Origin: Bdellovibrionota bacterium
GTDB lineage: Bacteria > Bdellovibrionota > UBA1018 > CAIPTA01 > JAALKR01
Direction: 5' to 3'
Assembly: GCA_965207455.1 (NCBI GenBank)
Contig: CBDBMJ010000003.1
Span: 224,001-288,000, forward strand
DNA length: 64,000 bases
Below the pieces are notes generated by a model. The model made no database searches and was not told the origin of the DNA. It saw only the letters and a program-made list of their open reading frames with translations. This document shows, in pieces, positions 2,752-28,132 of this stretch; the stretch's first letter is position 1; each line of letters starts with the position of its first letter. The position numbers and the translations under genes were made by a program.

Positions 2752-3666
2752 ATGAATAATACACCCATACTTTCTGTTGGTTCCCTCGCCTTTGATTCCA
2801 TTCAAGTTCCAGGGGATTCTGTAGAAGCGGCTCTTGGAGGATCAGCAAATTATTTTTCACTTTCGGCTAGTTTTTTTTCTCCTGTGCAAGTGGTGGGTGT
2901 TGTGGGAGAGGATTTTCCTCAAGAGCATTTACGTTATTTAGAGTCTCGAAATATCGACACGCAAGGAATTCAAGTTAAAGAAGGCAAGACCTTTCATTGG
3001 AAAGGAGAATATAAGGACGACTACAACAGTGCCATTACCCATGATACGGAACTCAATGTTTTTGGAGATTTTAATCCAGAGGTGCCTGCTCATTACGCCA
3101 AGGCCAAATATGTTTTCTTAGGTAATATTACTCCGAGTTTGCAATCTCGGGTGCTGGAGCAGGTGGAGAATCCCAGATTAATTGCACTAGACAGCATGAA
3201 CCTTTGGATCAATACCGCTAACGATGATTTGCAGGGCATACTAAAAAAAGTGAACTTACTTATCATCAATGATGGAGAGACTTGCTTGTTGGGTAAGAGT
3301 AAGAATGTTTTTACAGCGGCAGAAAAAATCATGGAGATGGGCCCTAAGTGCCTTGTTGTAAAGAGAGGTGAGTACGGTGCTTTCCTTCTTATGAACGGTG
3401 AGTATTTTGTAGCGCCGGCAGTACCTTTAAAGCAAATAAAAGACCCCACGGGGGCAGGCGATACTTTCGCAGGTGGTTTGTTAGGGTATTTAGCGTCTCA
3501 AGATTGCGACCTCAGCGACACAACTGTTCTCAAACAAGCTCTTCTATATGGAACCGTAATGGCCAGCTTTGTGGTACAGGATTTTAGTTTTCTTCGACTA
3601 AAGACGATCAGCTCAAAAGATATTCAAGCAGTCTATAAGAAAATTTCTTCCATGATTACTTTATGA
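2752..3666 (+). CDS. PfkB/ribokinase-family sugar or nucleoside kinase
   Basis: GGSANY, VVGVVGEDF, C-terminal DPTGAGDTFAGG PfkB signature; SD-like AAGGA upstream of ATG 2752. Confidence 0.9.
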   Translation: MNNTPILSVGSLAFDSIQVPGDSVEAALGGSANYFSLSASFFSPVQVVGVVGEDFPQEHLRYLESRNIDTQGIQVKEGKTFHWKGEYKDDYNSAITHDTELNVFGDFNPEVPAHYAKAKYVFLGNITPSLQSRVLEQVENPRLIALDSMNLWINTANDDLQGILKKVNLLIINDGETCLLGKSKNVFTAAEKIMEMGPKCLVVKRGEYGAFLLMNGEYFVAPAVPLKQIKDPTGAGDTFAGGLLGYLASQDCDLSDTTVLKQALLYGTVMASFVVQDFSFLRLKTISSKDIQAVYKKISSMITL

Positions 3667-4230
3667 CTCTTCTTGAAAGTGAATAACGGGCAGCGTTTTA
3701 TTGGGAAGAAATTTCTTCTCATTCATTCGAAACTCAATCTCATTATTTTTTTCAGCAATTGCCAGCGACGGAGCCTTTTTATTTTTTTGAGTCATGGCCC
3801 TTCGAGAAATCCATTGTGAGTATAGTACAGGCTTAAATGTGCTGTCTTTTTTATACTCCAAGATAGTCCAGTAGAAATCTTGGTATTGGGAAGTCCTACC
3901 TACGGCATGTGTCCAGCCCTTGAGTTCCACAAAAATTCTTCCTTTAATCCGTATTATTTTTGGCTTTACCCAGCTTCCATACTGTAGAACATTGTCAACG
4001 AACGGCTCCAGCTTTATTTTCGCTGCCCATTTAGAGGGAACAAAATAAAGTTGCATGCCATTGCTTGTTTCTCTCAATTCAATAAATTTTTTACCAACTA
4101 GGGGGACTTTATTAATTCGATGGCTTGTATTTTTCCCTTCAACGTCTGTCGTTGAGAAAGAAAAAATTAGTAGCATAAGGCAGTATTTTATATGGATTCT
4201 GCTTTTTTGGATATTTTTTCGTGCTTGCAT
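3661..4230 (-). CDS. Exported hypothetical protein; candidate immunity/partner of the upstream cell-wall hydrolase
   Basis: AGGAG 5 nt before ATG 4230; basic N-terminus followed by a hydrophobic stretch (YCLMLLIFSFS); last gene of the minus-strand array. Function is inference only. Confidence 0.6.
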   Translation of the reverse strand: MQARKNIQKSRIHIKYCLMLLIFSFSTTDVEGKNTSHRINKVPLVGKKFIELRETSNGMQLYFVPSKWAAKIKLEPFVDNVLQYGSWVKPKIIRIKGRIFVELKGWTHAVGRTSQYQDFYWTILEYKKDSTFKPVLYSQWISRRAMTQKNKKAPSLAIAEKNNEIEFRMNEKKFLPNKTLPVIHFQEES

Positions 4231-4241
4231 ATTTTCTCCTA

Positions 4242-6368
4242 TTATTTTTTCCTTTGACATTCCGCTCTCTCTTCCGCAGTCCGCGGTACTGGGCGAAAGA
4301 AAGAAACCGCTGGTTTGCTCTCTGCTATTTCAATATCACCTATATGTGTTACGGAATATTTTTCTGGTTTAGAATAACAAGCAAATCCTGGTTTTGAATC
4401 ACCATGACAAAAGAAAAAATTAAAGTCTTCTGCTAGTTTTTCTCCCTTACTTTTATAGGGGTACTTCTCCTTAAAATTCTTTGGATCACAGTAAGCTTCT
4501 CTAGATAGTTTTACGGCTAAATCCCATCGCTTTGGAGATTCTTTCTTAGGACAAAGGGTGCTACTTAAATTACCATGGTCTTTTACTTGAGGATTCCATA
4601 CGGAAAATTGATATCTTTTGGAAAGCACTCTTTCCTCTGGGGTCATATTTTCCACCCGTTCGCTTTCTCCTTTCTTTCTAGCAAAATTCCCTTTATATAT
4701 TTGTTCATAATTTCCCGGTTCTTTCCGTTTCCTAACATTATTTCTAAATACTTTATTATTCTCAAACCTTGTACGATCAGCAATGGTTCGAAGAGAGTAA
4801 ATATAATGGCCATTGGACTCACTATCACCTTCTGTTTCCACACTTCGAACCTCGCTATATATTGTTCTAGCCATGGCATCAATTGTACGCAAATCTCGGA
4901 AAGTCATTTTTTCACCAAGCCTGCATGTTAATTCAGATTCAGCAAGTTTGCTATGAATCTTATCTTTTTTCTTATCCCAATCAGCATAGACATGCCTGTC
5001 ATAAGAACTCATATTATGATTACCAATTCCATCCTTAAATTTAATACAAGCACCTGTATTATCTTTTAGAAATTCTTCGTCTTGTTCCTTCTCAGCTTGG
5101 ATCAAAGCTTGTGTTGCTTGAGCAACTCCATTATTTGACGATTTTTGTGAACATCCATATACCTCAATATAATGGAGAATTTGATCAGCCGTCAGTTTCG
5201 TGCTGAAACTATTATTCCTGGCTTGTATATTAAAATCTCCAAATTCTCTTAATTGTGCTAACTGTGCTAACTCGGACGAAGTAACTTTTACATTAAATTT
5301 TTTCAATATAGCGCAATATATGGGATTCTTTCCTTCTTCACAAGATATACCTCCTGGACTAAGTTGGGCTGCTTGTTTTTTTGTCGGTTTTTTTGCTGCT
5401 GATTTTGCTTTTAATTGCTCTAGTTCTACTGCTTGTTTTGCCGCTTGTTTCGCTGCTTGTTTTTCTTGTTTTGCTGCTTGTTCTACTGCTTGCCTTGCCT
5501 GTTTTGCTTCCTCTGACTTCAATTGTGCTAGTTTTACTGCTTCTTCCGCCAATAGCCTTTCTTCTTCTTTCTCTCTTAAATCAGCCTCTGCTTGTGCTAA
5601 TTCTGCCTCTAATTGCGCCTGTTTTGCTGCCTCTTCCGCTGCTTCTTTTGCGCTTGATCTTCTTGCTTGGCTAAACGGATCGTATTCCATGCTTTTTTGC
5701 TTTTCTTTCATTTCTGACGTCAATCGTTCTACAGTTCTTTCTATTTTATCTAATTCCAAAGATTTCTGTATGTTAATGTTCCCTAAGCTGAAATTTCCTG
5801 TCCTTTTTTTCCAGGGAGATGCCCATCCCTTTTCAAAAACGATTGTTTTTTCCTCTTCATTCCATGGCTTAAATGTCAATACTCTGTTGGTATCTCCAGA
5901 CCTGCCTAGTGAACGTGTGCCTTCAGAAATATAGTAAGGGATAGGGTTTCCGCCCTTCACTGTTGAACGTTTTAATCCTACGATACGAAGATTTTTCTTC
6001 TTGAGCTCTACCCAACCTCGCCTCTTATTTCCCCCATGCTTCATAAAAGTGGCATAAATAAAATTACGACCACGAAATCTCCGTACCACTATCTTTTGCT
6101 CTCCCCATTCATCGACAGCAATATAGCCTTCGGAAAGCTTCTCGCTAGGCTTGCAAGCAGGGCCTCCTTGAGTTGAATCGCTACACGGTTTCTTCACACA
6201 AGCTTCCAGCTCTTTTGCCGTTAATTTGGGGGAACATTGAGGGTAGTAAACAGGATTACCCACCATACTGTAACTCACATGATCAATTAGCAGGGTAGTC
6301 TCTGCTACCGTGTTAATGGTAAATAAACAAAGAGTTACAGACAAACAGGAAATAAAAACTCTCTTCAT
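4242..6368 (-). CDS. Exported modular protein: Cys-rich N-terminal region, Ala/Lys/Glu coiled-coil linker and C-terminal SleB/Hydrolase_2-like cell-wall hydrolase domain
   Basis: Signal peptide MKRVFISCLSVTLCLFTINTVA; motifs IDAMARTIYSEVRS (cf. LARTIYGEARGE) and VLSKRYQFSVWN (cf. VxxPxQFSCWN). Confidence 0.75.
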   Translation of the reverse strand: MKRVFISCLSVTLCLFTINTVAETTLLIDHVSYSMVGNPVYYPQCSPKLTAKELEACVKKPCSDSTQGGPACKPSEKLSEGYIAVDEWGEQKIVVRRFRGRNFIYATFMKHGGNKRRGWVELKKKNLRIVGLKRSTVKGGNPIPYYISEGTRSLGRSGDTNRVLTFKPWNEEEKTIVFEKGWASPWKKRTGNFSLGNINIQKSLELDKIERTVERLTSEMKEKQKSMEYDPFSQARRSSAKEAAEEAAKQAQLEAELAQAEADLREKEEERLLAEEAVKLAQLKSEEAKQARQAVEQAAKQEKQAAKQAAKQAVELEQLKAKSAAKKPTKKQAAQLSPGGISCEEGKNPIYCAILKKFNVKVTSSELAQLAQLREFGDFNIQARNNSFSTKLTADQILHYIEVYGCSQKSSNNGVAQATQALIQAEKEQDEEFLKDNTGACIKFKDGIGNHNMSSYDRHVYADWDKKKDKIHSKLAESELTCRLGEKMTFRDLRTIDAMARTIYSEVRSVETEGDSESNGHYIYSLRTIADRTRFENNKVFRNNVRKRKEPGNYEQIYKGNFARKKGESERVENMTPEERVLSKRYQFSVWNPQVKDHGNLSSTLCPKKESPKRWDLAVKLSREAYCDPKNFKEKYPYKSKGEKLAEDFNFFFCHGDSKPGFACYSKPEKYSVTHIGDIEIAESKPAVSFFRPVPRTAEERAECQRKK
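5385..5650 (-). repeat. Low-complexity AAKQ/AAEE coiled-coil repeat within the 708-aa protein
   Basis: Recurring gctgcttgtttt-like units encoding AAKQEKQAAKQAAKQA. Confidence 0.7.
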
Positions 6369-7845
6369 ATTAATAAATTGTACGCTTACCCCTTAGATAA
6401 AACAACGGGAAGATAATACAAAGGTCTGTTTTTTTGTAACAGGTATTTTTTTTCAAAGTTGATGCTATTTATTTTTATCCTCGTCTTTAATGATTATATA
6501 TCCTCTCTGATCTAGTTCCCTATCTGTACCTTTCAAAACCTCCCGAGCATTCAAAGATTTTTCCAAGGCAAGCATTGCTTCCATAGTTGTTCTAAATACA
6601 ACCAACAGTTCTCGCAAGCGGCGGGTATTCATTTTCCCTGCCTGCATGAATGAGTATACCTGTTCTTGCCTCATTATATCCTTCTCCAACATCCATATAA
6701 ATTCTAGCCTTATTCTTTCCCACATTATGCCTTTCTGTTGGGTCTGCGGGAACAAAATTCCCAATTGGAAATTTTACATTTGCTGGAAGCGGACCCCTGC
6801 CTCCCGGCTTCCATGGATCAACTTTTGCTTTCTTTACCGGAACCCTGTTTGTAGCCTCAAAAATTTCAAATGTACTGTCCGGAAAATAAATGGTTAATTT
6901 ACCAACATTAACCAATTCATTCCTATCATCATAAAGTTCACTTCTTTTTTCACCGGTCCTATCAAAAACAGCAATTACTTTTGGATCTCTTTTACTCGCT
7001 TTTTCTAGCGCAACAAGCGGAACACTAAGATCTATCCCTCCCGTTGGAGAGGGCTGTCTTTGACATCCGTTTACCTCAATATAATGGAGAATTTGATCAA
7101 CCGTCAGTTCTGCACTAATAATGCTATTCTTATTTTGCATATCAAAATCCATCAGTTTGCTAAGTGCCGGTATTTCAGCAATAGTCACTATTAGCTTAAG
7201 TTTTTCTTGCTCCAATTCCTCCTGTTCTAATTTCTTTTGTTTCATTTTCTTTAGGTTCTCAACTATCCTGTCTTTTTCCAATATGGCGCAGTATATGGGA
7301 TTCTTTCCTCCCTCACAGAATATGCTTTTTGGACTCAACGGAATTTCTTGTTTTGCTGGTAGCTTTAACTCTTTCTTACTTGTCTTCTTTTTGGGCTGTC
7401 TCCAAGGCTGACTTTTCACCAGTTCCTTTTCCAGTTGTACTGTAATTGTTTCCATTTCTTTTAATTCCAAAGATTTCTGATCGGTGATTTTTTTGTGCGT
7501 GTGGTTTCTTAACCTTTGTTCCCAAGGAGAACGATTAACTTTTTCAAAAACAATTGGTCTTTTTCCCTTATTCCATGGTTCAATCTTTAATATTTTCTTC
7601 TCTCCAGCCCCGCCTAATGGAAGCGTATTTACGGAAATATTGGAAACAATATAGTTTTTTTTTGCTGTTGGATTTTTCACTCCTATTAGACGAAGAGTTT
7701 TCTTCTTGACCTCCACCCAGCCTTTTTTCTTCTCTATGCCTCCTGTATCAGAAAAACCGGCATGAATAAATATTCTACCATCATACAATTTTCTCACTTC
7801 AAACCCCGGCGCTCCCTTTTCTTGAATAATAATATTACCTTCAGG

Positions 7846-9051
7846 GTAACTAGTGGTCTAACCACTTAATTTTTTCACTTTTCTTGGAAGCGCAGTGCCG
7901 TGGCTTGTCGCATTTTTTGAGCAATCATTAAGACATGAATCCAGTAGAACTGAGTGATAGTGACTTACTCGAAATAAATAATGTTATAAAAAAAAGCGAA
8001 AATAACAGAATAGTTGTAAGGGCCATTGCCCTAAAAATGAAATATCTAAACCATACAAATATGGGTGCGGCAGAGGTTCTGAATATAACCCCTAGGACAG
8101 TGATTAATATTTGTAGCTACTATAGTAGCGGAAGGAATAGAATCTGCTTTAAACGATGACCCAAGACCAGGGAGGCCAGTAGAAATAGATGATAGAATAA
8201 AGTCTAAAATTGTTGCAATAGTCTGCAGTGACCCACCTGAAGCTTTTGATCGCTGGACATTGGAACTCATACAAGAGCAAGTAATAAAAGATGATATCGC
8301 TGAAAAAATAAGCAAAGAAAAAATCAGAATAATGCTCCAAGAGCATGATTTAAAACCTTGGAGATATGATATGTGGTGTGTGCCCAAGTTAGATAAAGAG
8401 TTTATCAATAGAATGGAAGATATATTAGATATCTATGAGATGCCTGTAGACGATAATGATCCTATAGTGTGCATTGATGAGAAATCGATCCAGTTACTTG
8501 ATAATAAGCGAGAGGAAAGTTGTACAAAAGAAGGGTCAATTAGAAAAATTGATCATGAATACAAGAGAAATGGAGCAGCAAATATATTTATGGCGGTAGA
8601 ACCCAAGAAGGGTATTTTTCATGCCAAGGTTACCGATAATAGGACGGGAAAAGATTTCGCTAAATATCTTTCTCAAATAGAAAGGAAGTATTCAAATTCT
8701 AAAAAAATCATTTTAGTAATGGATAATTTGAATACTCACAAAGAAAAATCATTACTCGATTTCTATGGAACGGATAAGGGGAAAAAGCTCTGGAAAAGAT
8801 TTGAAGTGCACTACACGCCAAAGCACGCCAGTTGGTTAAATCAAGCTGAGATCGCAATAGGTATGTACTCACGGCAGTGTCTGGGAAAAAGAAGAATTGG
8901 ATCTATCGAAGACCTGAGAAAAAAGACAAATGGTTGGGTCAGTGCAATTAATTCTAAAGAAGTAATAATTAAATGGAAATTTAACAAGGTCGAAGCTAGG
9001 GAAAAATTCAAATATAAAGTGAAAAAATTAAGTGGTTAGACCACTAGTTAC
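7846..9051 (+). mobile_element. IS630-family insertion sequence
   Basis: Perfect terminal inverted repeats gtaactagtggtctaaccacttaattttttcacttt (7846-7881 and 9016-9051); CTAG at both ends; CCTTCAGG direct repeat at 7838-7845 and 9052-9059; DDE transposase inside. Confidence 0.93.
7935..9039 (+). pseudogene. IS630-family transposase with a +1 frameshift near 8104-8130
   Basis: HTH part from 7935, then EGIESALNDDPRPGRP...RWTL in frame with the 8260 ORF; DDE motifs CIDEK, HEYKRNG, MDNLNTH, YTPKHASWLNQAE; stop codon lies inside the right TIR. Confidence 0.88.
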
Positions 9052-9307
9052 CCTTCAGGAAGCTTCTCCCCAGCCTTACAGTTGCCGACATGTGGGTCTC
9101 CAAAAGCACCATCAAGCTGCTGTTCACATGGCCTCCCAAGACAGTCAGCCAATGCTCCTTCCTTTAAGTCAGGCGAACACTTGGGATAATAAGTAGTCTC
9201 ACCTACCACACCGTAGCTCATATAATCAAATAGACCAGCAATAGCTCTTGGATTAGCAAATAAAGCAAGAATTATAAATAAACGAATATATAAAAAACCT
9301 AGATCAA

Positions 9308-10798
9308 TCACTGTGCACTTTTCTTTTTAATTTGTTTGCCGCTTGCTGGTGTCGAGGATCTCTTAACCCTTAACCACCCTGTTTTCCTCTGACATCTGGG
9401 ATTGAGATAAGAGTAGCTATCTTTTATTACCTTGTCGGGATACTTTAGAATTTCACTCTTTCTGCTTTTCTCTGTAAGGCCCTTCATAAGCTTCTTCTTA
9501 CTTCCAAATGAGAGATCACTCTCATGTATAAATTTCTTAAACTTCTCAAGCGTTTTGTAATTTTTTATTCCCCTTACTATTTTTTGGTACTCTCCTATTT
9601 CCTTAGCACGTCTTTCTAACGTTTTTTTATTCTTATTTTCTATCCTCTTCTCCACGAGAACCTTAATCTCATCGATAAGCGTGTTCAAAGAGTCAACACC
9701 TTTTTTTAATTTACCACAATAATTATGCGCAAACGAAAATAAGCTTACACCAGCATTATGTGCCCATGTGGCCAATAAAATTGGGAACTTCAATTCGACT
9801 TCAATTTTGTTTGAGCCCCTACCTATGGAGTATGTTAAGCGCTGATTCTCTGGCTCAAGCCACTCTACTATTTCCCTAGCTGTTTTTCCAGTATCACCTT
9901 TTTTTCTCGTCAATTTCTTAAAATTATTTTGGCAATTACTTAAAAGTTTATTTGCTTCTGCAAGATTTTCCTTAAATTGAAGGGTGCTGTATAGCATACA
10001 CAAGTGGGGGTTTTCCAAAAACTGGCACCTGCGATATATGTAGATCACATCTTCAATATCTTTTCTTGACGTTGCACCAACAAATTTGGGAATCCTATCT
10101 GGAAAATTCTCATATCCATGAGATTTTCGAATCTTCTCTCTTGTACTTTTACATTGCTCAGATTTAAATTGCTTACTGAAAGCACTGTTCTTTTTAAAAT
10201 AATTATGTGTTTGCCGCACTGAATCGCCAGTGAGCTGCCCCAAGCAAGTAGCACCCCAATCGCTTTGCGCGTTTAGTTTAAGTTTAGATTCATGAATAAG
10301 TAAAGGCAGCATAGAAAAGTAATCAATACCCACACATTCTCCCACATCCCTTAAAGCTTCCTCAATACTTGCAACATAATTTTTATTAATGCAAAATGCT
10401 CCTCTTTTCATACTAAGGAGCCTTTTATTTTTCCAACTCACCTCTTGCCTTCTCAATTCCTCCTTGTATATTTTCCCATCGGTTCCTCTTCTCTCAACGA
10501 TTTCACCTGAGTCTATGCAGTAAGCATAAAACTTCCCTTTAATACCGACCTTCATAGCTGGCAATAAACAGCTGTAATCCTTACACCGTTTATCATCCCA
10601 GCGAGCAGAATTTTCATCCCAGTGGGCAGAACTTTCATCCCAGCGTTGACTATATTTTTCTATAATATCCTGCTTTTCTTCACATTCGCCAACATTTAAT
10701 CTGCACACAGCCAAGCATTCGCTAGGAACAAGCACAGGCAAGCAGAATAATATCAATGTAAAGAAGAGCTTTATTCTGTTCAGATACGGAGAAATCAT
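9308..10798 (-). CDS. Exported lytic transglycosylase (SLT/lysozyme-like fold) protein
   Basis: Signal peptide; LPLLIHESKLKLNAQS (E-S motif I), GATCLGQLT (A-x-GLxQ-like motif II), TWAHNAG (AYNAG-like motif III). Confidence 0.72.
   Translation of the reverse strand: MISPYLNRIKLFFTLILFCLPVLVPSECLAVCRLNVGECEEKQDIIEKYSQRWDESSAHWDENSARWDDKRCKDYSCLLPAMKVGIKGKFYAYCIDSGEIVERRGTDGKIYKEELRRQEVSWKNKRLLSMKRGAFCINKNYVASIEEALRDVGECVGIDYFSMLPLLIHESKLKLNAQSDWGATCLGQLTGDSVRQTHNYFKKNSAFSKQFKSEQCKSTREKIRKSHGYENFPDRIPKFVGATSRKDIEDVIYIYRRCQFLENPHLCMLYSTLQFKENLAEANKLLSNCQNNFKKLTRKKGDTGKTAREIVEWLEPENQRLTYSIGRGSNKIEVELKFPILLATWAHNAGVSLFSFAHNYCGKLKKGVDSLNTLIDEIKVLVEKRIENKNKKTLERRAKEIGEYQKIVRGIKNYKTLEKFKKFIHESDLSFGSKKKLMKGLTEKSRKSEILKYPDKVIKDSYSYLNPRCQRKTGWLRVKRSSTPASGKQIKKKSAQ
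10593..10645 (-). repeat. 21-bp in-frame tandem repeat (about 2.5 copies) encoding WDESSAH/WDENSAR/WDD
   Basis: tcatcccag begins at 10593, 10614 and 10635. Confidence 0.85.
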
Positions 10799-10844
10799 TT
10801 TTCAAAAACCTCTAAAATTCAAACATAGTGTTTGGTAAAATAAA

Positions 10845-12434
10845 TTAATTGCCACGAGAACCGCCCTTGGCATTGCCTCCAGCACTGCCCCCTGAGGGGT
10901 TAAAACTAAGCCAGCCTATTTTTTCTTGGCATGATTGGGATTGTTTGTCAGCACGCACTGAATCCACATTGCCATAAATGTAATTATCAGGCTTGAGATA
11001 TTGATAACCATCCTCTATCGTACTTTCAATATAGCCTAAAATTTCTCTCGTTCTATTTATTTTTCCTTTCACAACCTTCTGAACTCCAGCATAAGCTTTT
11101 TTATTCAAGCTTTTTATGTGATTCATAAATGCTTCAAGTGTTTTGTATTTTTTCAGAATACCTAGCAATTCACTACTCTCGCCATGGGTTTTCACAATAT
11201 ACTCCTCGGTTGCGCTTCTATCATCCTTTTTTCTTTTTTTCTCTGCAATATCTCGTACTTCATTCTGCACATCATTCTTCACTTTCTTACCGCGCCTCAG
11301 TGCTCGTACTATTCTGTTGCAGTAGCTATCCACATAGCCAAATAATTCTCCGCCAACATTGTGTGCCCATGTGCCCAATAAAGTTTGTGCCTTAAGCTCA
11401 ACATTCGTTTTTTTATTTAAGGAGTATGTAAATTTCTGATCCTCTGGCTTAAGCCAATCTGCTATTTCCTTCGCTTTTTTTCCGCGAAACCCGTCAATCT
11501 TTTTTTGGCATTTCTTTAAATGAGCGGCTGCCCTGTCGGAATTCTTCTTAAAATAGAGCGTTGAATACAGCAGGCACAAATAAGGGTTATCTATAAACGC
11601 ACATCTAAATCTTGGTTCATCTGTATTGAATTTATGTATTTGATCATTGTCACTCCAATATGTGGGGAAATGTTCGTTTGGAAGAAATGGAAAATTTGCA
11701 TATTCCTCATTTTTTCGAATTTTATCCCTTGTATTTTTACATTCCGAATTCGTACTAAACCTCTGTATAAAATCAGTAGATTTTCTATCTGGAACCTTTC
11801 CTCTCTTGTTTTCCACAGGAGTTCTCTCTCCAAAATATTTTTTATTCACATCAGCTATTGCAACACCAGTGAGTTGCCCTAGGCAAGAGGCTCGAGCACC
11901 GCTTTGTGCATTCAGACCAATTCTAGACTCATGGATGAGCAATGGCAATATGGAAAAAGGCTCAATGCCCACGCACTTGCCCACTTCTTTTAAGGCATCC
12001 GCAATAACTGCAACATGCTTTTTATCAACACAAGGCTTACTCCTTCTTCTCATTCTGTTAGTCTCTTGGCGCCATTTGCCGGATTTATTTTTTTTACAAT
12101 ACGCATACCCACTACCTCTCGTGCTATCCTGCCATCTATTCCTTGGTGCTGATGCAAGGGCAGCCTCCATGGCTGGCAGCAAACAACCATAGTTTTCACA
12201 TTTTTTATTATCCCAACCAGGAGATAATTCATTCACTCTTTCCTGATGTTCGATTACAAGCTTATACCCTGCATGTTCATATATTCTTTCCTTACCCTTA
12301 TATTCCTTACACTTTTCCCGTATTGTACAAACACCCGATCCTTCAGCATGAGTAAACACTGATGCGAGCAAATAAATCAGCACTGCGCTCAACATAAATA
12401 AGAGATTTTTTTTATGTATGTGCTGGGAAAACAT
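10845..12434 (-). CDS. Exported lytic transglycosylase (SLT-like) protein, paralogue of 9308-10798
   Basis: Signal peptide ending THA; LPLLIHESRIGLNAQS, ARASCLGQLT, TWAHNVG; shared WDxKxCxxYxCLLPAM and RCxFxxNPxLCxLYSTL blocks. Confidence 0.72.
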   Translation of the reverse strand: MFSQHIHKKNLLFMLSAVLIYLLASVFTHAEGSGVCTIREKCKEYKGKERIYEHAGYKLVIEHQERVNELSPGWDNKKCENYGCLLPAMEAALASAPRNRWQDSTRGSGYAYCKKNKSGKWRQETNRMRRRSKPCVDKKHVAVIADALKEVGKCVGIEPFSILPLLIHESRIGLNAQSGARASCLGQLTGVAIADVNKKYFGERTPVENKRGKVPDRKSTDFIQRFSTNSECKNTRDKIRKNEEYANFPFLPNEHFPTYWSDNDQIHKFNTDEPRFRCAFIDNPYLCLLYSTLYFKKNSDRAAAHLKKCQKKIDGFRGKKAKEIADWLKPEDQKFTYSLNKKTNVELKAQTLLGTWAHNVGGELFGYVDSYCNRIVRALRRGKKVKNDVQNEVRDIAEKKRKKDDRSATEEYIVKTHGESSELLGILKKYKTLEAFMNHIKSLNKKAYAGVQKVVKGKINRTREILGYIESTIEDGYQYLKPDNYIYGNVDSVRADKQSQSCQEKIGWLSFNPSGGSAGGNAKGGSRGN

Positions 12435-12437
12435 TTT

Positions 12438-13190
12438 TTAAACGCCCCCGAACTTCAAGCATAGTATCTGACGAACATAATACATGTCCTCGTAAGAATT
12501 TGGAGCACGCTCTGTCCATGGGTACTCCTCTAGTGAGGATTCATACTTTGGATCAAAATTCAAAAGGTAAGCACTTGGATTAAGGCAGTACTTTTTCTTA
12601 CTCCATTGAGAAAAGCCCATCGCCTTGAAAGCACGATCATAACTAGAAAATAAATATATTTTCATTTCAACTTCTTTCTCTAATTTTGCTGATTTTATCT
12701 TTCCGTAGTATTTCTCTTTTGCACGAAGGCCCAGTATTTCTCCCTGAATTTCGGAATGAAAATTAGTTATCATTTCTTTTATTTTTTTCTCGCCCGTCTC
12801 GTCACATGGAGCTTGAAATATCTTCTGTGCTATTTTTTTTGTTACAGGCAAATTTATTTTACCCACAATAGCTTCCACTTCCTTTTGTCTTTTCCGAGCT
12901 ATTTTTGCTTTTTCTTGCTTTTGCCTTCTTTGGTAAAACTTGGATTTCTTTGAGGACGTTTTTTCGGAGTTTTCTAGCTCACAAAATATGTTTTTATATA
13001 TCTTCTTTAGCTTTTTTGTGGGTTGACTCCCTTGCTCAGCAAGAGATAGCTGGGATGTGGAAAAAAAAGAGCAAAGCAGAAGTATCCATATGCACCCTTT
13101 CCAAGCAATAAAAAAGTGCCTAAAAATACACGGTAAATACTTATATTGTTGAAGTTGATTGAAAACTTTATTCCTAGCCATTCTTTTCAT
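12438..13190 (-). CDS. Exported hypothetical protein, first gene of the cell-wall-enzyme array
   Basis: Long ORF ending 3 nt before the next start; hydrophobic signal-like segment CIWILLLCSFFSTSQLSLA; start codon uncertain (13190 chosen from a promoter-like sequence). Confidence 0.6.
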   Translation of the reverse strand: MKRMARNKVFNQLQQYKYLPCIFRHFFIAWKGCIWILLLCSFFSTSQLSLAEQGSQPTKKLKKIYKNIFCELENSEKTSSKKSKFYQRRQKQEKAKIARKRQKEVEAIVGKINLPVTKKIAQKIFQAPCDETGEKKIKEMITNFHSEIQGEILGLRAKEKYYGKIKSAKLEKEVEMKIYLFSSYDRAFKAMGFSQWSKKKYCLNPSAYLLNFDPKYESSLEEYPWTERAPNSYEDMYYVRQILCLKFGGV

Positions 13191-13285: not shown

Positions 13286-14026
13286 TTACTTGGGAAGCTT
13301 CTTTCTCTCTAACAGGCTCGCAACCAGAATGGATCCTTCATATAGAAGGTACAGGGGAACCATCATCAGGACCATGGAAAGCACATCGGGTGGAGCGCAT
13401 AGTGCGGACATAACGGCAATAGCAATAACTGCGGTCCGTCGGTTTTTTCGGAGAGTTTTTACATCCAGTACACCCACACAAACTAAAAATACCAGAACTA
13501 CGGGAAACTCAAAGGACAAGCCAAAGAGAAGTAGCAGTCGAAAAACGAGAGAAAAATATTCCTTCACGGTAATAAGAGGTATGTTTTGAGGTTGGCCAAA
13601 TTCTATGAAAAAAGGAAAGCCGCTGGGGAAAATAAAGTAATACGCAAAACTAGCACCAAGAAAGAAAAAGCAGGTGCCAAGAACAACAAAAGGAATGGCC
13701 ATACGCTTTTCCTGCTTGTGCATAGCGGGGGAAATAAAGGCCCATACTTGGTAAAAAATAACGGGCATGGCTAGGAGAAATCCCCCGATCATGGAAACAC
13801 GAAGGCCATTGAGAAAGCTTTCAAATAGCCCGGTAAAGTATAATTGCTGCTTGTCTGGAGGAAGCACCGCAAAGAGGGGTTGGGTAAAAAACGCCGTCAG
13901 CGGTTTATGGAATAAATAACACAGGGAGGAGGTGGCGATAAATGCCCACAGGCACCATAGCAGGCGTTTTCGTAGCTCTTCAAAGTGATCGACAAACGGT
14001 TTTTCTGAGTCTTCTGGCTTGGTCAT
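13286..14026 (-). CDS. tatC: Twin-arginine translocase subunit TatC
   Basis: PFVDHFEELRKRL, YQVWAFISPAM, FGLSFEFPV, APPDVLSM, LYEGSI. Confidence 0.95.
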   Translation of the reverse strand: MTKPEDSEKPFVDHFEELRKRLLWCLWAFIATSSLCYLFHKPLTAFFTQPLFAVLPPDKQQLYFTGLFESFLNGLRVSMIGGFLLAMPVIFYQVWAFISPAMHKQEKRMAIPFVVLGTCFFFLGASFAYYFIFPSGFPFFIEFGQPQNIPLITVKEYFSLVFRLLLLFGLSFEFPVVLVFLVCVGVLDVKTLRKNRRTAVIAIAVMSALCAPPDVLSMVLMMVPLYLLYEGSILVASLLERKKLPK

Positions 14027-14083
14027 GGTTTTTTTTGTTTATTGCCTTTCTTCAATCAGTGATATATATACTTTTTATACGTT

Positions 14084-14704
14084 ATGCAAATAAAACTGGA
14101 AAATACGGGTATCGCATCGCTAGCACCAATCCTGGCGCTGCTTTTTTGGGGCACTAGTTGTACGGAAACCCCTCAGCCAAACAATCCAAACACATCAGGG
14201 GAACCTGTAAAAAACATAGGCGGAAAAGTGGAAACAACAAAATATGATCTCAGTGTGGACAAAAAAACAGGCCTGTCCAAAGCCATTGCTACTATGATTC
14301 TTGGCGACGGCTCAAAAATAGAGTGGCAATTCTTCACGGAAAAGGCGCCCAATACGGTTCGTCGAATCACACACCTTATCAGTACTGGTTTCTACAACAA
14401 TACCGTGTTTCACCGTGTAATTGACGGCTTTGTAGTACAGGGAGGCGACCCCACTGGTACCGGCACTGGCGGATCGGGAGAGAATATAAATGCAGAATTT
14501 AACGATATTAAACATGTGCTTGGGATCGTGTCCATGGCGCGTGCACAAGATGCGAACTCCGCAGACAGTCAATTTTTTATGATGACAGGAACCCATACCC
14601 ACTTAGATAAGAGCTATACTGGCTTTGGAAAAGTGGTCACCGGTGAAGGGCTTTTGAAAAAAATAAAAAAAGGCGATAAAATTAAAACCTTCACAATTAA
14701 ATAA
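14084..14704 (+). CDS. Cyclophilin-type peptidyl-prolyl isomerase, probable lipoprotein
   Basis: FHRVIDGFVVQGGDPTGTGTGG, SMARAQDANSADSQFF, HLDKSYTGFG; lipobox-like GTSC. Confidence 0.93.
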   Translation: MQIKLENTGIASLAPILALLFWGTSCTETPQPNNPNTSGEPVKNIGGKVETTKYDLSVDKKTGLSKAIATMILGDGSKIEWQFFTEKAPNTVRRITHLISTGFYNNTVFHRVIDGFVVQGGDPTGTGTGGSGENINAEFNDIKHVLGIVSMARAQDANSADSQFFMMTGTHTHLDKSYTGFGKVVTGEGLLKKIKKGDKIKTFTIK

Positions 14705-25384: not shown

Positions 25385-26845
25385 ATGCAACGCATAGCCA
25401 TATTTCTTGTAGTATCCTTTATTTTACCTCTAAAAGCAAGGAGCACCCCCATCAAGCTCGATGCCCTAAAAGTCCTATTTGAAAAACAAATTAGTAAGCT
25501 ACCCAAGCAAATCAGCCTTTCCATGCTTGTGGAAACCGCAGGAGATAGAAAGGTCATCTACTCCCATAAAAAGAACACAGCATTGGTACCTGCCTCCTCC
25601 ATGAAACTACTCACCTCCAGCGCAGCACTTGAAATCATGGGACCTGCCCACACGCTCAAAACCCGGGTTTTGCTAGAGGGCACTCGTAAAGGAGATACCC
25701 TAGATGGACACCTAGTACTCGTGGGCAATGGAGATCCATACTTAGTCAGTGAACGCCTTTGGCTCTTAGCGAGAGCTATTGCCCGCACGGGTATAAAAAA
25801 AATTACCGGCGGTATTAAAGTAAATAATGAATATTTTCCTGAAAACGACACATTACTAAACTTAGCCGGAAAGGGCGAACCCTATGCTGCAAAGCTGGCT
25901 GCCACTAGCTTTAATTTTAATAGCTTGGAATTGCATGCCTCAGTTGGAAACAAAAAAGAAAAAGTAATCGTGCATTTAGGCCCGGTGGAACATGGCTATG
26001 GCAAAATCATCAATGATGTGAGACTAGTTCCCGGAAAAACGAAATCTGTCCGAGTGACATCAAAGGGACGAAAAAAAGGAATAGAAACATTTCGTCTATC
26101 GGGAAATTTGGGAAGAGAAGCCTCTCCCCTTGTGCTCTACTATCCAGTGGAAGATACATCAGCCTATATCAGCCATGTCTTAGCCGCTATGTTGAAAAAA
26201 GAAAGCATTGAAATAAAAATCCCTTATGCAGGAAACACTAATTTTGATTCTGGAAAGGAACTCACAAAAATTGAAAGTCCTCCTCTCACCACGCTCCTAC
26301 GCCTAATGAATACTTATAGTAATAACTTTATGGCAGAACAGTTCTTTTATATAATGGGTGCTATTAAGCACGGAGCACCAGCAACGAAAGAAAAATCCAA
26401 ACAAGTACTAGATGAGTCCTTAAAAAAAATACCCGAATGTAGAAAAGACACTATCTTTGCAGACAACGGCTCCGGGTTCAGTTGGAAAAGTCGGATAAGT
26501 GCTGCCTGCCTAGTGGGCAGCTTGCAAAAAAGCTACCGAAAGTTTCGTGGCTTTGCCGATTTAATTGGAAGCATGCCCATTGGTGCCAATACGGGCACCC
26601 TAAAAAAACGATTCCATGGCTTTGATTCTTCCTGGTTCCACCCAACAAAAGTGCGTGCAAAAACAGGAACACTTTGGAGTCAAGGTGCTGTTACCTCCAT
26701 CGTCGGATTTACTTCCTCCTACTCTGGCGAGCCTCTAGTATTCTCTTTACTACTAAACCATAAGGAATCGGGCAGTAAGCCCATTTTACCAATGCGAAAT
26801 TGGGAAGAGAAAATAATTAGTCTTTTACAAAAGGTGACTTTGTAA
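25385..26845 (+). CDS. dacB: D-Ala-D-Ala carboxypeptidase/endopeptidase PBP4 (peptidase S13)
   Basis: PASSMK (SxxK), GNGDP, SNN (SxN), DNGSG, AKTGTL. Confidence 0.92.
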   Translation: MQRIAIFLVVSFILPLKARSTPIKLDALKVLFEKQISKLPKQISLSMLVETAGDRKVIYSHKKNTALVPASSMKLLTSSAALEIMGPAHTLKTRVLLEGTRKGDTLDGHLVLVGNGDPYLVSERLWLLARAIARTGIKKITGGIKVNNEYFPENDTLLNLAGKGEPYAAKLAATSFNFNSLELHASVGNKKEKVIVHLGPVEHGYGKIINDVRLVPGKTKSVRVTSKGRKKGIETFRLSGNLGREASPLVLYYPVEDTSAYISHVLAAMLKKESIEIKIPYAGNTNFDSGKELTKIESPPLTTLLRLMNTYSNNFMAEQFFYIMGAIKHGAPATKEKSKQVLDESLKKIPECRKDTIFADNGSGFSWKSRISAACLVGSLQKSYRKFRGFADLIGSMPIGANTGTLKKRFHGFDSSWFHPTKVRAKTGTLWSQGAVTSIVGFTSSYSGEPLVFSLLLNHKESGSKPILPMRNWEEKIISLLQKVTL

Positions 26846-26866: not shown

Positions 26867-28132
26867 ATGAATAAAAAAATATTATTTTTATGTTCTTGGA
26901 TGTGGATGCTAGCAACCCCTTCACAAACATGGGCCGATACAAGGACTCCATTCCAAAGTCATAAAATCTTAAAGGACTCTTTCCAGTACGGCTCCATAAA
27001 AACAGAGAAAGCCCTGCACTCTAGAGTAAGATTCTGGATAAACATATTCACCCAACTCCATAACTGGGAAATCCTACTCCACGATTCCCTCTTCCCCAAC
27101 ATCATATATGAATCGATTAATGTTAAGGATATTGAAGAAAATAAAAAAATCAGCAATAGAACAAAAAGAAGACAAATCGCAAAAAAAATTAAAGATAGAA
27201 GGAAGTATTATTCTAAGCTTTTAACGGATTTATATTTCAAGCACTCCTCGGGCAATCCAGAAAAAGCAACCATGACGGAAGATGAGCTTCGCGTCTACGA
27301 ACAGTATACAAAAAGAAAACTCCACCATAGAGAAATCCTTGCTGCCTCTGAAAAAAAACGTTTTCGTACTCAGAGAGGACTAAAGGAAAATTTCATCCAA
27401 GGGATCTACGAGTCGGGCAGATATATGCCGAAAATCCAAAGAATTATGAGTCGCCATAATCTTCCTCCAGAAATCTCCTACCTACCCTTTTTAGAGTCAA
27501 GCTTTAATAATAACGCTCTATCAAGAGTAGGCGCCTCTGGAATCTGGCAATTCATGCCCAGTACTGGAAAATTATTTCTCCGCGTGGACAAGATAGTAGA
27601 TGAAAGAAACGACCCCCTAAAAGCAGCAGAAGCTGCTGCACTCCTTATCGCCTCCAATTATAAGGCACTCCAAGCCTGGCCTCTTGCCATCACAGCCTAT
27701 AATCACGGTAAATCTGGAATGTTAAGCGCTGTTAGAGCTACTAAAACAAGATCCCTAGCCTCCATTATTGAAAAATATAACGGTAAGCGCTTTCAATTTG
27801 CCTCTAAAAATTTCTTTAGTGCTTTTGTGGCTAGCCTCCATACCGCAAAAAATAGTACTTTTTATTTTGGAAAAATTGGTAGTGCAGAGGTAATAAACTT
27901 TGAAGAATTTATTATGCAAGATTATATGAGCCTCAAGACACTGGCTCATTTCACAGGCATTGAACCAGATGAACTCAAAAAATATAACCCTGCTCTTACG
28001 AAACCTGTTCAAAACTATAAAAAATATATACCCGTGGGCTATACTCTTCGAGTGCCTTTAGCTAATAAAAATGATTTTTTAGCACGCTATAAGGCAATTC
28101 CTCCTCAATATAAATTTTCTCGACAAAAATAA
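26867..28132 (+). CDS. MltD-like lytic murein transglycosylase with a C-terminal LysM-like region
   Basis: LPFLESSF, GASGIWQFMPSTG, DERNDP, WPLAITAYNHG, LKKYNPAL. Confidence 0.88.
   Translation: MNKKILFLCSWMWMLATPSQTWADTRTPFQSHKILKDSFQYGSIKTEKALHSRVRFWINIFTQLHNWEILLHDSLFPNIIYESINVKDIEENKKISNRTKRRQIAKKIKDRRKYYSKLLTDLYFKHSSGNPEKATMTEDELRVYEQYTKRKLHHREILAASEKKRFRTQRGLKENFIQGIYESGRYMPKIQRIMSRHNLPPEISYLPFLESSFNNNALSRVGASGIWQFMPSTGKLFLRVDKIVDERNDPLKAAEAAALLIASNYKALQAWPLAITAYNHGKSGMLSAVRATKTRSLASIIEKYNGKRFQFASKNFFSAFVASLHTAKNSTFYFGKIGSAEVINFEEFIMQDYMSLKTLAHFTGIEPDELKKYNPALTKPVQNYKKYIPVGYTLRVPLANKNDFLARYKAIPPQYKFSRQK

What the first reader, a model, noticed from the sequence alone, without database searches (positions are those of the whole stretch)
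3661..13190. Candidate undescribed peptidoglycan-attack arsenal: six-gene array of exported proteins with three different wall-lytic folds and two orphan partners
Seen: six co-oriented, closely spaced genes (3-nt gap, 46-nt gap, ATGA overlap, 96-nt gap, 11-nt gap), all with signal-peptide-like N-termini. Four carry motifs of wall-cutting enzymes: two SLT-like (IHES / CLGQLT / WAHNxG), one Tlde1/L,D-transpeptidase-like (GPLP / ILIHAG / GCI[R]) and one SleB/Hydrolase_2-like (ARTIYSE / YQFSVWN). The first and last genes have no recognisable domain. Established: these folds cut glycan strands or stem peptides, and Tlde1 is a known interbacterial effector with a neighbouring immunity gene. Inference: a Sec-exported predation/competition locus with flanking immunity or chaperone proteins. 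No T6SS, T4SS or CDI markers are visible here.
Basis: partly seen in the sequence, partly recalled or inferred. Interest (0 to 1): 0.85.

Follow-up and report, generated by a model that had tools for sequence, protein, structure and literature searches.

The report
Predator's mix-and-match wall-cutting enzyme cluster
A Bdellovibrio-like bacterium carries a strain-variable row of six genes for likely exported proteins, three intact ones predicted to cut bacterial cell-wall sugars (likely those of prey) and one knocked out by a jumping gene, and one of these predicted enzymes belongs to an unannotated family that is also present in the laboratory model predator.

Summary
Genes 2 and 3 are paralogues of a Bdellovibrionota family with a lytic-transglycosylase fold (model matches MltE/MltC/Slt70) and an invariant Glu. 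Gene 5 ends in a divergent SleB/Hydrolase_2-like domain that Pfam misses; its family occurs in 30 of 301 phylum genomes, including an unannotated B. bacteriovorus protein (CAE80564.1). New observation: genes 4 and 5 share an orphan ~430-residue N-terminal trunk (~40% identical) but end in unrelated domains. The Tlde1/L,D-transpeptidase call for gene 4 is weak (motif only). Nothing supports immunity: relatives have no conserved partner, no T6SS marker was found, and runs of exported genes are common in this genome. A second strain in the same sequencing run carries a different allele. Best reading: a lineage-specific, fast-turning-over tandem cluster of secreted wall-glycan cutters, likely for prey. 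Known chemistry, new families and arrangement. The scan's earlier notes held nothing on these families.

The parts
12438..13190 (-). g1: orphan, basic (pI 9.6), signal-like N-terminus, 250 aa from ATG 13190 (longest frame starts TTG 13241)
   Evidence: no family hit; no paralogue in genome
10845..12434 (-). g2: 529-aa exported, Cys-rich protein with predicted lytic-transglycosylase (SLT/family 1) fold; predicted catalytic Glu169
   Evidence: alignment A1/A2; model pLDDT 69, pTM 0.75 (94); VIA-align MltE Z 10.1, rmsd 3.3, 168 aligned
9308..10798 (-). g3: 496-aa paralogue of g2 (34-39% identical), same motifs
   Evidence: g2, g3 and a third copy at G000:C3:423235-424701 form one clade 100/100 (138)
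9052..9311 (-). g4 5' piece: GTG start overlapping g3 stop, signal-like N-terminus and start of the trunk shared with g5
   Evidence: (43-44% identity to g5 N-terminus)
7846..9051 (+). IS630-family element inside g4, with terminal inverted repeats and flanking 8-bp direct repeats; transposase itself split into two frames (7932-8159, 8104-9039)
   Evidence: internally deleted second copy at G000:C1:1725402-1726077 (13)
6592..7845 (-). g4 3' piece: rest of shared trunk, then ~150-aa domain with Tlde1/YkuD-like His...Cys motif; frame stops right after GCI
   Evidence: negative profile search
6465..6590 (-). out-of-frame tail of g4 (~41 codons)
4242..6368 (-). g5: 708-aa exported protein; orphan trunk shared with g4 (with an Ala/Lys/Gln/Glu-rich helical insert) plus C-terminal divergent SleB/Hydrolase_2-like domain, predicted catalytic Glu506
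3661..4230 (-). g6: orphan, basic (pI 10), signal-like N-terminus, 189 aa; a second-strain allele differs mostly at third codon positions

Best explanation
This is a lineage-specific tandem cluster of genes for likely Sec-exported proteins in a Bdellovibrionota bacterium, in which three intact genes (g2, g3, g5) are predicted to encode Glu-dependent lytic transglycosylases that likely cut the glycan strands of prey cell walls, while a fourth (g4) is a pseudogene. Shown: g2/g3 arose by duplication within this lineage; g4/g5 share one N-terminal trunk and end in unrelated domains; g4 is broken by an IS630 element and a frameshift; a co-occurring strain has a different allele. Predicted: SLT fold of g2/g3, SleB-like fold of g5. 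Inferred: export, disulfide bonding in the periplasm, the trunk acting as a spacer or targeting arm on which catalytic domains were exchanged, prey wall as the substrate, and redundancy allowing loss of g4. g1 and g6 are real exported-looking genes of the same run whose role is unproven; they are more likely co-exported cargo than cognate inhibitors.
For: Fold: the ten best of 48,161 chains are all lytic transglycosylases or lysins (MltE Z 10.1, MltC 9.8, Slt70 9.2); Glu, Gln and NxG columns invariant in 9 of 9 rows; 4 of 9 members hit Pfam SLT, best 4.7e-7. g5: a profile of 29 relatives built without g5 finds it at 2.8e-18 among 10,221 genome ORFs; the family aligns to 17 canonical Hydrolase_2 proteins at E 7e-4, probability 26%, against 0.2% and 0.1% for controls; one relative reaches the Pfam cut-off and matches g5 at 4e-8; ESM Atlas 0.92-0.93 with Hydrolase_2 clusters (16-27% of members); model pLDDT 77, pTM 0.83. 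Both families are spread in Bdellovibrionota (34 of 127 class genomes, 37; 30 of 301 phylum genomes). Shared trunk 38-43%. Strain variation. Secreted wall enzymes acting on prey are established in B. bacteriovorus (PMC13689555, PMC10127604, PMC2797640; passages read). The genome has 7 ordinary SLT proteins over cut-off, one YkuD and one DacB for housekeeping.
Against: No activity, expression or localisation data; predation by this uncultured organism is inferred from lineage only. Foldseek found nothing at E<=0.001 for g2 (best LtgA 0.36) and Z 8-10 is moderate for a helical protein. g2, g3 and g5 hit no Pfam family themselves. No structure comparison was obtained for the g5 model. The g5 family is near-universal and single-copy in one Bdellovibrio-containing family (19 of 35), which also fits a self-wall role. 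The nearest relative searched (G001, 88% complete) showed neither family.
Confidence: 0.55

Rival explanations
1. The enzymes remodel the organism's own wall (division, insertion of pili or secretion machines), and the cluster is just local duplication.
For: g5 family conserved as a single copy in 19 of 35 genomes of one family; lytic transglycosylases commonly serve such roles (PMC10127604, introduction passage); four secretins in the genome.
Against: Housekeeping SLTs are present separately; patchy distribution in the class (5 of 127 for g5 family); strain-level allele turnover and a fixed-looking pseudogene are more typical of conflict genes.
Confidence: 0.22
2. A polymorphic toxin-immunity locus: common trunk with interchangeable wall-attacking tips, neutralised by adjacent exported proteins (g6 for g5, g1 for g2/g3).
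For: Trunk plus swapped C-termini; strain-variable alleles; in G083 and G082 the g5 relative overlaps a short exported gene, as g5 abuts g6; precedent of an ankyrin immunity gene downstream of dacB in B. bacteriovorus (PMC13689555, passage) and Tldi1 for Tlde1 (PMC9638812, passage).
Against: No gene follows g2, g3 or g4 individually; g1 lies upstream; of 21 distinct downstream neighbours picked none resembles g6 (best E 0.45), and in 8 Bdellovibrio-type loci the neighbour is a membrane protein; no TssC/VipB in the genome (94.7% complete); g5 is covered by one shared contig while g6 has two ~90% alleles, the reverse of tight cognate pairing.
Confidence: 0.15
3. The domains are wall-binding or act on another beta-1,4 glycan (e.g. 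chitin) rather than cutting peptidoglycan.
For: Lysozyme-superfamily folds include a chitinase (rank 11, Z 6.8) and a GH124 cellulase (rank 18); large family-specific insertions surround the core.
Against: All higher ranks are peptidoglycan enzymes; the predicted catalytic Glu is kept in 30 of 32 distinct g5-family loci, the other two being cut short in my extraction, and in at least 90% of 18 SLT-family rows.
Confidence: 0.08

Closest known systems
Family 1 lytic transglycosylases (E. coli MltE 4hjy, MltC 4c5f, Slt70 1qsa; Pfam SLT PF01464)
   Same: Predicted fold, ES / GxxQ / (Y,H)NxG motifs, catalytic Glu position.
   Different: ~17% identity; at least seven invariant Cys, long helical insertions; g2/g3 invisible to Pfam; three lineage-specific paralogues.
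SleB/CwlJ-type cell wall hydrolases (Pfam Hydrolase_2 PF07486)
   Same: ARTxxxE helix with Glu, xxR, QFSxWN, terminal YY/FH-like strand.
   Different: About twice the length through insertions; below Pfam cut-off; fused to an orphan 430-aa trunk; belongs to a Bdellovibrionota subfamily whose B. bacteriovorus member (CAE80564.1) is annotated hypothetical.
Tlde1 / L,D-transpeptidase-fold effectors (PF10908; PMC9638812, passages)
   Same: GP(I/L)P, R, IH and GC motifs: 8 of 16 columns invariant in 9 Tlde1 domains are kept, including His and Cys.
   Different: Profile support weak; Sec-type signal and trunk instead of T6SS delivery; no Tldi1-like neighbour; gene is broken.
B. bacteriovorus secreted prey-wall enzymes (DacB pair with ankyrin immunity, MltA-like Bd3285, DslA, L,D-transpeptidases; PMC13689555 passages; gene number recalled)
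   Same: Exported wall enzymes of a Bdellovibrionota bacterium.
   Different: Different enzyme families; here clustered in tandem; neighbours are not ankyrin proteins by Pfam.

Membership tests
Family 1 (SLT) lytic transglycosylase (g2/g3) | Lysozyme-like SLT fold | tested here: met
   VIA-align top ten all LT/lysin, MltE Z 10.1, rmsd 3.3, 168 aligned; Foldseek not significant
Family 1 (SLT) lytic transglycosylase (g2/g3) | Catalytic Glu in ES motif with GxxQ and YNxG motifs | tested here: met
   (HNxG in g2/g3)
Family 1 (SLT) lytic transglycosylase (g2/g3) | Pfam PF01464 cut-off | tested here: not met
   no hit for g2/g3; relatives hit
Family 1 (SLT) lytic transglycosylase (g2/g3) | 1,6-anhydro-muropeptide production | not testable with these tools
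   needs enzyme assay
SleB/Hydrolase_2 (g5) | Sequence homology and conserved Glu | tested here: met
   (indirect, moderate)
SleB/Hydrolase_2 (g5) | Pfam PF07486 cut-off | tested here: not met
SleB/Hydrolase_2 (g5) | SleB catalytic fold by structure comparison | not tested
   model made but no fold search result was obtained
Tlde1/YkuD L,D-transpeptidase fold (g4) | His...(S/T)xGC motif | tested here: met
   second His is Val, but is His in only 2 of 9 Tlde1 rows
Tlde1/YkuD L,D-transpeptidase fold (g4) | Profile-level homology | tested here: inconclusive
   hmmsearch negative; hhalign probability 5.9%, E 0.006; 0 of 150 shuffles reach the score, best shuffle 20.3 vs 20.8; ESM 0.87-0.89 lead only
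Tlde1/YkuD L,D-transpeptidase fold (g4) | Intact gene | tested here: not met
   IS630 insertion and frameshift
T6SS effector-immunity locus | T6SS core genes in genome | tested here: not met
   no VipB/TssC match; one marker only, genome 94.7% complete
Polymorphic toxin system | Common N-terminus with variable toxic C-termini | tested here: met
   two members only, g4 and g5
Polymorphic toxin system | Cognate immunity gene directly downstream of each toxin | tested here: not met
   none after g2, g3, g4; no conserved neighbour in g5 family (118, 121)
Polymorphic toxin system | Enzyme-partner binding | not tested
   no complex prediction obtained
IS630 family element | DDE_3 transposase, terminal inverted repeats | tested here: met
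IS630 family element | TA target duplication (recalled feature) | tested here: inconclusive
   C1 copy fits CTAG/TA; this copy has extra 8-bp direct repeats

The most novel reading that the evidence does not exclude
Bdellovibrionota carry a hidden layer of Pfam-invisible wall-cutting enzymes, and in this lineage they are run as a Sec-exported polymorphic system: one trunk accepts interchangeable catalytic tips (SleB-like or L,D-transpeptidase-like), alleles are exchanged between co-occurring strains to tune prey range, and short exported neighbours such as g6 are cognate inhibitors. The unannotated B. bacteriovorus orthologue CAE80564.1 would be a missing prey-entry or exit glycanase.
Probability: 0.2. 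Interest if true: 0.75.

Novelty: new variant of a known kind. Interest (0 to 1): 0.46.

Why it matters
How Bdellovibrio-like predators open and leave the prey wall is only partly explained, and known deletions give slow rather than null phenotypes (PMC13689555, passage on DslA). Two families that annotation misses are defined here; one has a member in the genetically tractable B. bacteriovorus (CAE80564.1, hypothetical; no paper found for the accession), which makes the prediction directly testable by one deletion and one Glu mutant. The trunk with swapped tips and strain-level turnover hints at how such enzyme sets diversify. The array itself is a one-lineage arrangement with a dead member, so its value lies in the families, not in a conserved six-gene system.

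Tried and rejected
Direct library searches gave nothing for the six proteins: Pfam, PHROGs, NCBIfam, PDB sequences, own-genome PF07486 and PF10908. Word-index protein search found only the query for g2 and the g5 trunk, and nothing for the g5 tip among shorter proteins. Single-protein searches of g5 tip and g4 tip over 127 class genomes found only G000. Phage and plasmid tblastn: no significant hit. A 9-sequence Tlde1 profile missed g4 even with its tail read through with X. A profile of family N-termini (16 rows) did not match the g4/g5 trunk, so my guess of an SH3-like trunk is unsupported. g6 versus the exported neighbour in G083: BLAST E 53. g1 versus membrane neighbours of Bdellovibrio orthologues scored E 0.005 in a 24-sequence set (7 bits): treated as noise. 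Horizontal transfer by GC: array 37.6% versus 40.2 +/- 2.9%, 18% of genome windows as low: not significant. Metagenome scan with A7 returned 45 loci, mostly short generic matches; only L175 was used. No RNA holder listed. No contig joint that skips the IS was listed; contigs drop rare variants. An apparent reversal of gene order near tatC was my misreading; one search shows conserved order with only ppiA-tatC inverted. A fold search of the g5 model and a g5-g6 complex prediction were not obtained, so the SleB fold and any binding stay open. Literature searches: 54, 58, 123, 129, 134 (listings); none described these families or such an array; supplements were not read and the predatosome tables could hold expression data for the orthologue.
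Full report
Setting. The window is G000:C3:224001-288000 of a 2.38-Mb, 3-contig, 94.7% complete genome. The best TatC match in the genome collection is an NCBI 'Oligoflexia' MAG (61%), a close relative of g5 is labelled Oligoflexia, and genomes of the same phylum hold proteins identical to Bdellovibrio ones: the organism is in the Bdellovibrionota lineage. Predatory life is inferred from that only.

Anatomy. All have a hydrophobic N-terminal stretch and are basic (pI 9.2-10). g4 is not intact. An element at 7846-9051 with terminal inverted repeats, 8-bp flanking direct repeats and an IS630 transposase splits it after ~87 codons, and the 3' part stops at 6592 just after the GCI motif with a 41-codon tail in another frame. 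A short-read contig of run X1 covering 6536-7872 has no difference from the window, so the frameshift is in that data set; X1 may be the source of the assembly and is not independent. The transposase is itself split in two frames relative to a deleted copy on C1.

g2 and g3. They are 34-39% identical and have a third paralogue 190 kb away; the three form one clade (100/100, 18-row tree), so the expansion is local to this lineage. g2 found weak relatives in 6 of 40 other genomes; the resulting profile matched 34 of 127 class genomes including G000, of which 14 others match over a long stretch at E<1e-14 (6 of them were in the seed); the rest match only the SLT motif region. Invariant columns include the Glu (g2 E169), Gln, NxG and seven Cys. 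Four of 9 members hit Pfam SLT, g2 and g3 do not; the profile's PDB hits are weak but mostly SLT domains (best E 0.007). An AlphaFold model from 18 rows (pLDDT 69, pTM 0.75) gave no significant Foldseek hit, but VIA-align ranked ten lytic transglycosylases or lysins first among 48,161 chains (MltE Z 10.1, rmsd 3.3 A, 168 aligned).

g5. The C-terminal ~280 residues scored 0.92-0.93 in the ESM Atlas with clusters partly annotated Hydrolase_2. A profile of Hydrolase_2-type proteins from the phylum ranked g5 first of 10,221 ORFs (E 6e-4). The exhaustive search returned 7 proteins: g5, g4 and five unannotated relatives. The grown profile matched 5 of 127 class genomes and 30 of 301 phylum genomes (G000 and three seed genomes included), 19 of 35 in one family. 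One member is identical to B. bacteriovorus CAE80564.1, a hypothetical protein (that this strain is HD100 is recalled). A profile of 29 members without g5 finds g5 at 2.8e-18, and the family aligns to 17 canonical Hydrolase_2 proteins (probability 26%, E 7e-4; controls 0.2% and 0.1%). The Glu (g5 E506) is kept in 30 of 32 distinct loci; two were cut short by my extraction. The model is confident (pLDDT 77, pTM 0.83) but was not compared with solved structures.

g4 and the shared trunk. g4 and g5 align from the signal region to about g5 residue 435 (38-43% in blocks) and then diverge completely. The trunk has no relative in the protein collection and does not match the N-termini of the g5 family. 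The g4 tip keeps 8 of 16 columns invariant in nine Tlde1 domains, including His and Cys (motif as given in PMC9638812, passages), yet a Tlde1 profile misses it, hhalign gives 5.9% and the score only just exceeds 150 shuffles; ESM gives 0.87-0.89 with YkuD, Tlde1 and DUF5675 clusters. I rate the fold likely (~65%) but unproven, and the gene is dead.

g1 and g6. No family, paralogue or neighbour match. g6 is a real gene: 34 listed differences to a second-strain allele change 14 codons silently and 13 not, 20 at third positions (47 further rows over the whole stretch were not shown). Among 32 distinct g5-family loci a same-strand downstream gene was picked for 21; short exported-looking ones occur in G083 and G082 (overlapping) and, further off, G162 and G300; in 8 Bdellovibrio-type loci it is a membrane protein; none resembles g6 (whose output was partly cut, and 121). 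No TssC/VipB was found; four secretins were.

Context. Beside tatC in four relatives and pfkB in one there is no array; ppiA-tatC is inverted in G000, so the array sits at a synteny break. Runs of exported genes are common in this genome (9 others). G162 has an independent run: g5-like enzyme, exported orphan, YkuD, YkuD_2. In run X1 a contig at depth ~15 matches pieces of g2/g3 and joins 6595 to 9750 and 10387 to 12381 with unknown sequence between, while the window allele lies at 21-25 and the tatC side at 43: a second strain differs across g2-g4. One study only.

Mechanism. Shown: duplication, tip replacement on a shared trunk, inactivation of g4, strain variation. Predicted: Glu-dependent glycan cleavage by g2, g3, g5. 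Inferred: Sec export, then action on prey peptidoglycan, as established for other secreted wall enzymes of B. bacteriovorus (PMC13689555, PMC10127604, PMC2797640; passages read, not whole texts). Odds: prey-directed enzyme cluster 0.55, self-wall 0.22, toxin-immunity locus 0.15, other glycan or binding only 0.08.

Verdict. Observation partly confirmed; interpretation partly supported. Chemistry is known; the two Pfam-invisible families, the trunk-and-tip pair and the testable B. bacteriovorus orthologue are new as far as searches reach. The scan's earlier notes held nothing on them. New variant of a known kind, interest 0.46.

Noticed in passing
window 7838-7853 and 9044-9059; G000:C1:1725402-1726077: The IS630 copy in g4 is flanked by 8-bp direct repeats outside a palindromic end, whereas the C1 copy fits an ordinary CTAG/TA target; either an unusual duplication length or insertion into an older 20-bp footprint. 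The C1 copy lacks 530 bp internally.
   Followed up: partly
L158:5131-8720 (G162:C1): Co-oriented run of exported g5-like hydrolase, exported orphan, YkuD and YkuD_2 L,D-transpeptidases in another Bdellovibrionota genome.
   Followed up: partly
L235:1159-2364 and L226-L235: Bdellovibrio orthologue of the g5 tip (hypothetical protein CAE80564.1) is followed closely by a conserved ~165-aa membrane protein gene in 8 loci.
   Followed up: partly
L171:3530-5475 (G083) and L172:4377-6631 (G082): g5-family enzyme gene overlaps a short exported beta-rich gene; best candidates for an enzyme-inhibitor pair.
   Followed up: partly
G000:C3:421439-424701 (L009): Third SLT-like paralogue is followed by a 523-aa exported protein with a caspase/legumain-like His-Gly...Cys pattern (by eye, recalled motif).
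   Followed up: no
L043, L044 (G196, G232): Rhs proteins with C-terminal Tlde1 domains in two of 201 Bdellovibrionota genomes searched.
   Followed up: partly
L015, L033, L042 (G267:C9:43262-46008): Three tandem canonical Hydrolase_2 genes in one genome.
   Followed up: no
G000:C1:1036422-1047508, 500772-508299, 788694-794198: Other runs of 6-9 co-oriented exported-looking genes, some apparently paralogous.
   Followed up: no
window 13286-14704: ppiA-tatC pair is inverted relative to G002 and G007 and detached from its usual upstream neighbours; the array lies at this breakpoint.
   Followed up: yes
window 25511-26806 and 27452-27754: The genome's only DacB (Peptidase_S13) match and an ordinary SLT gene lie 12-14 kb from the array.
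   Followed up: no
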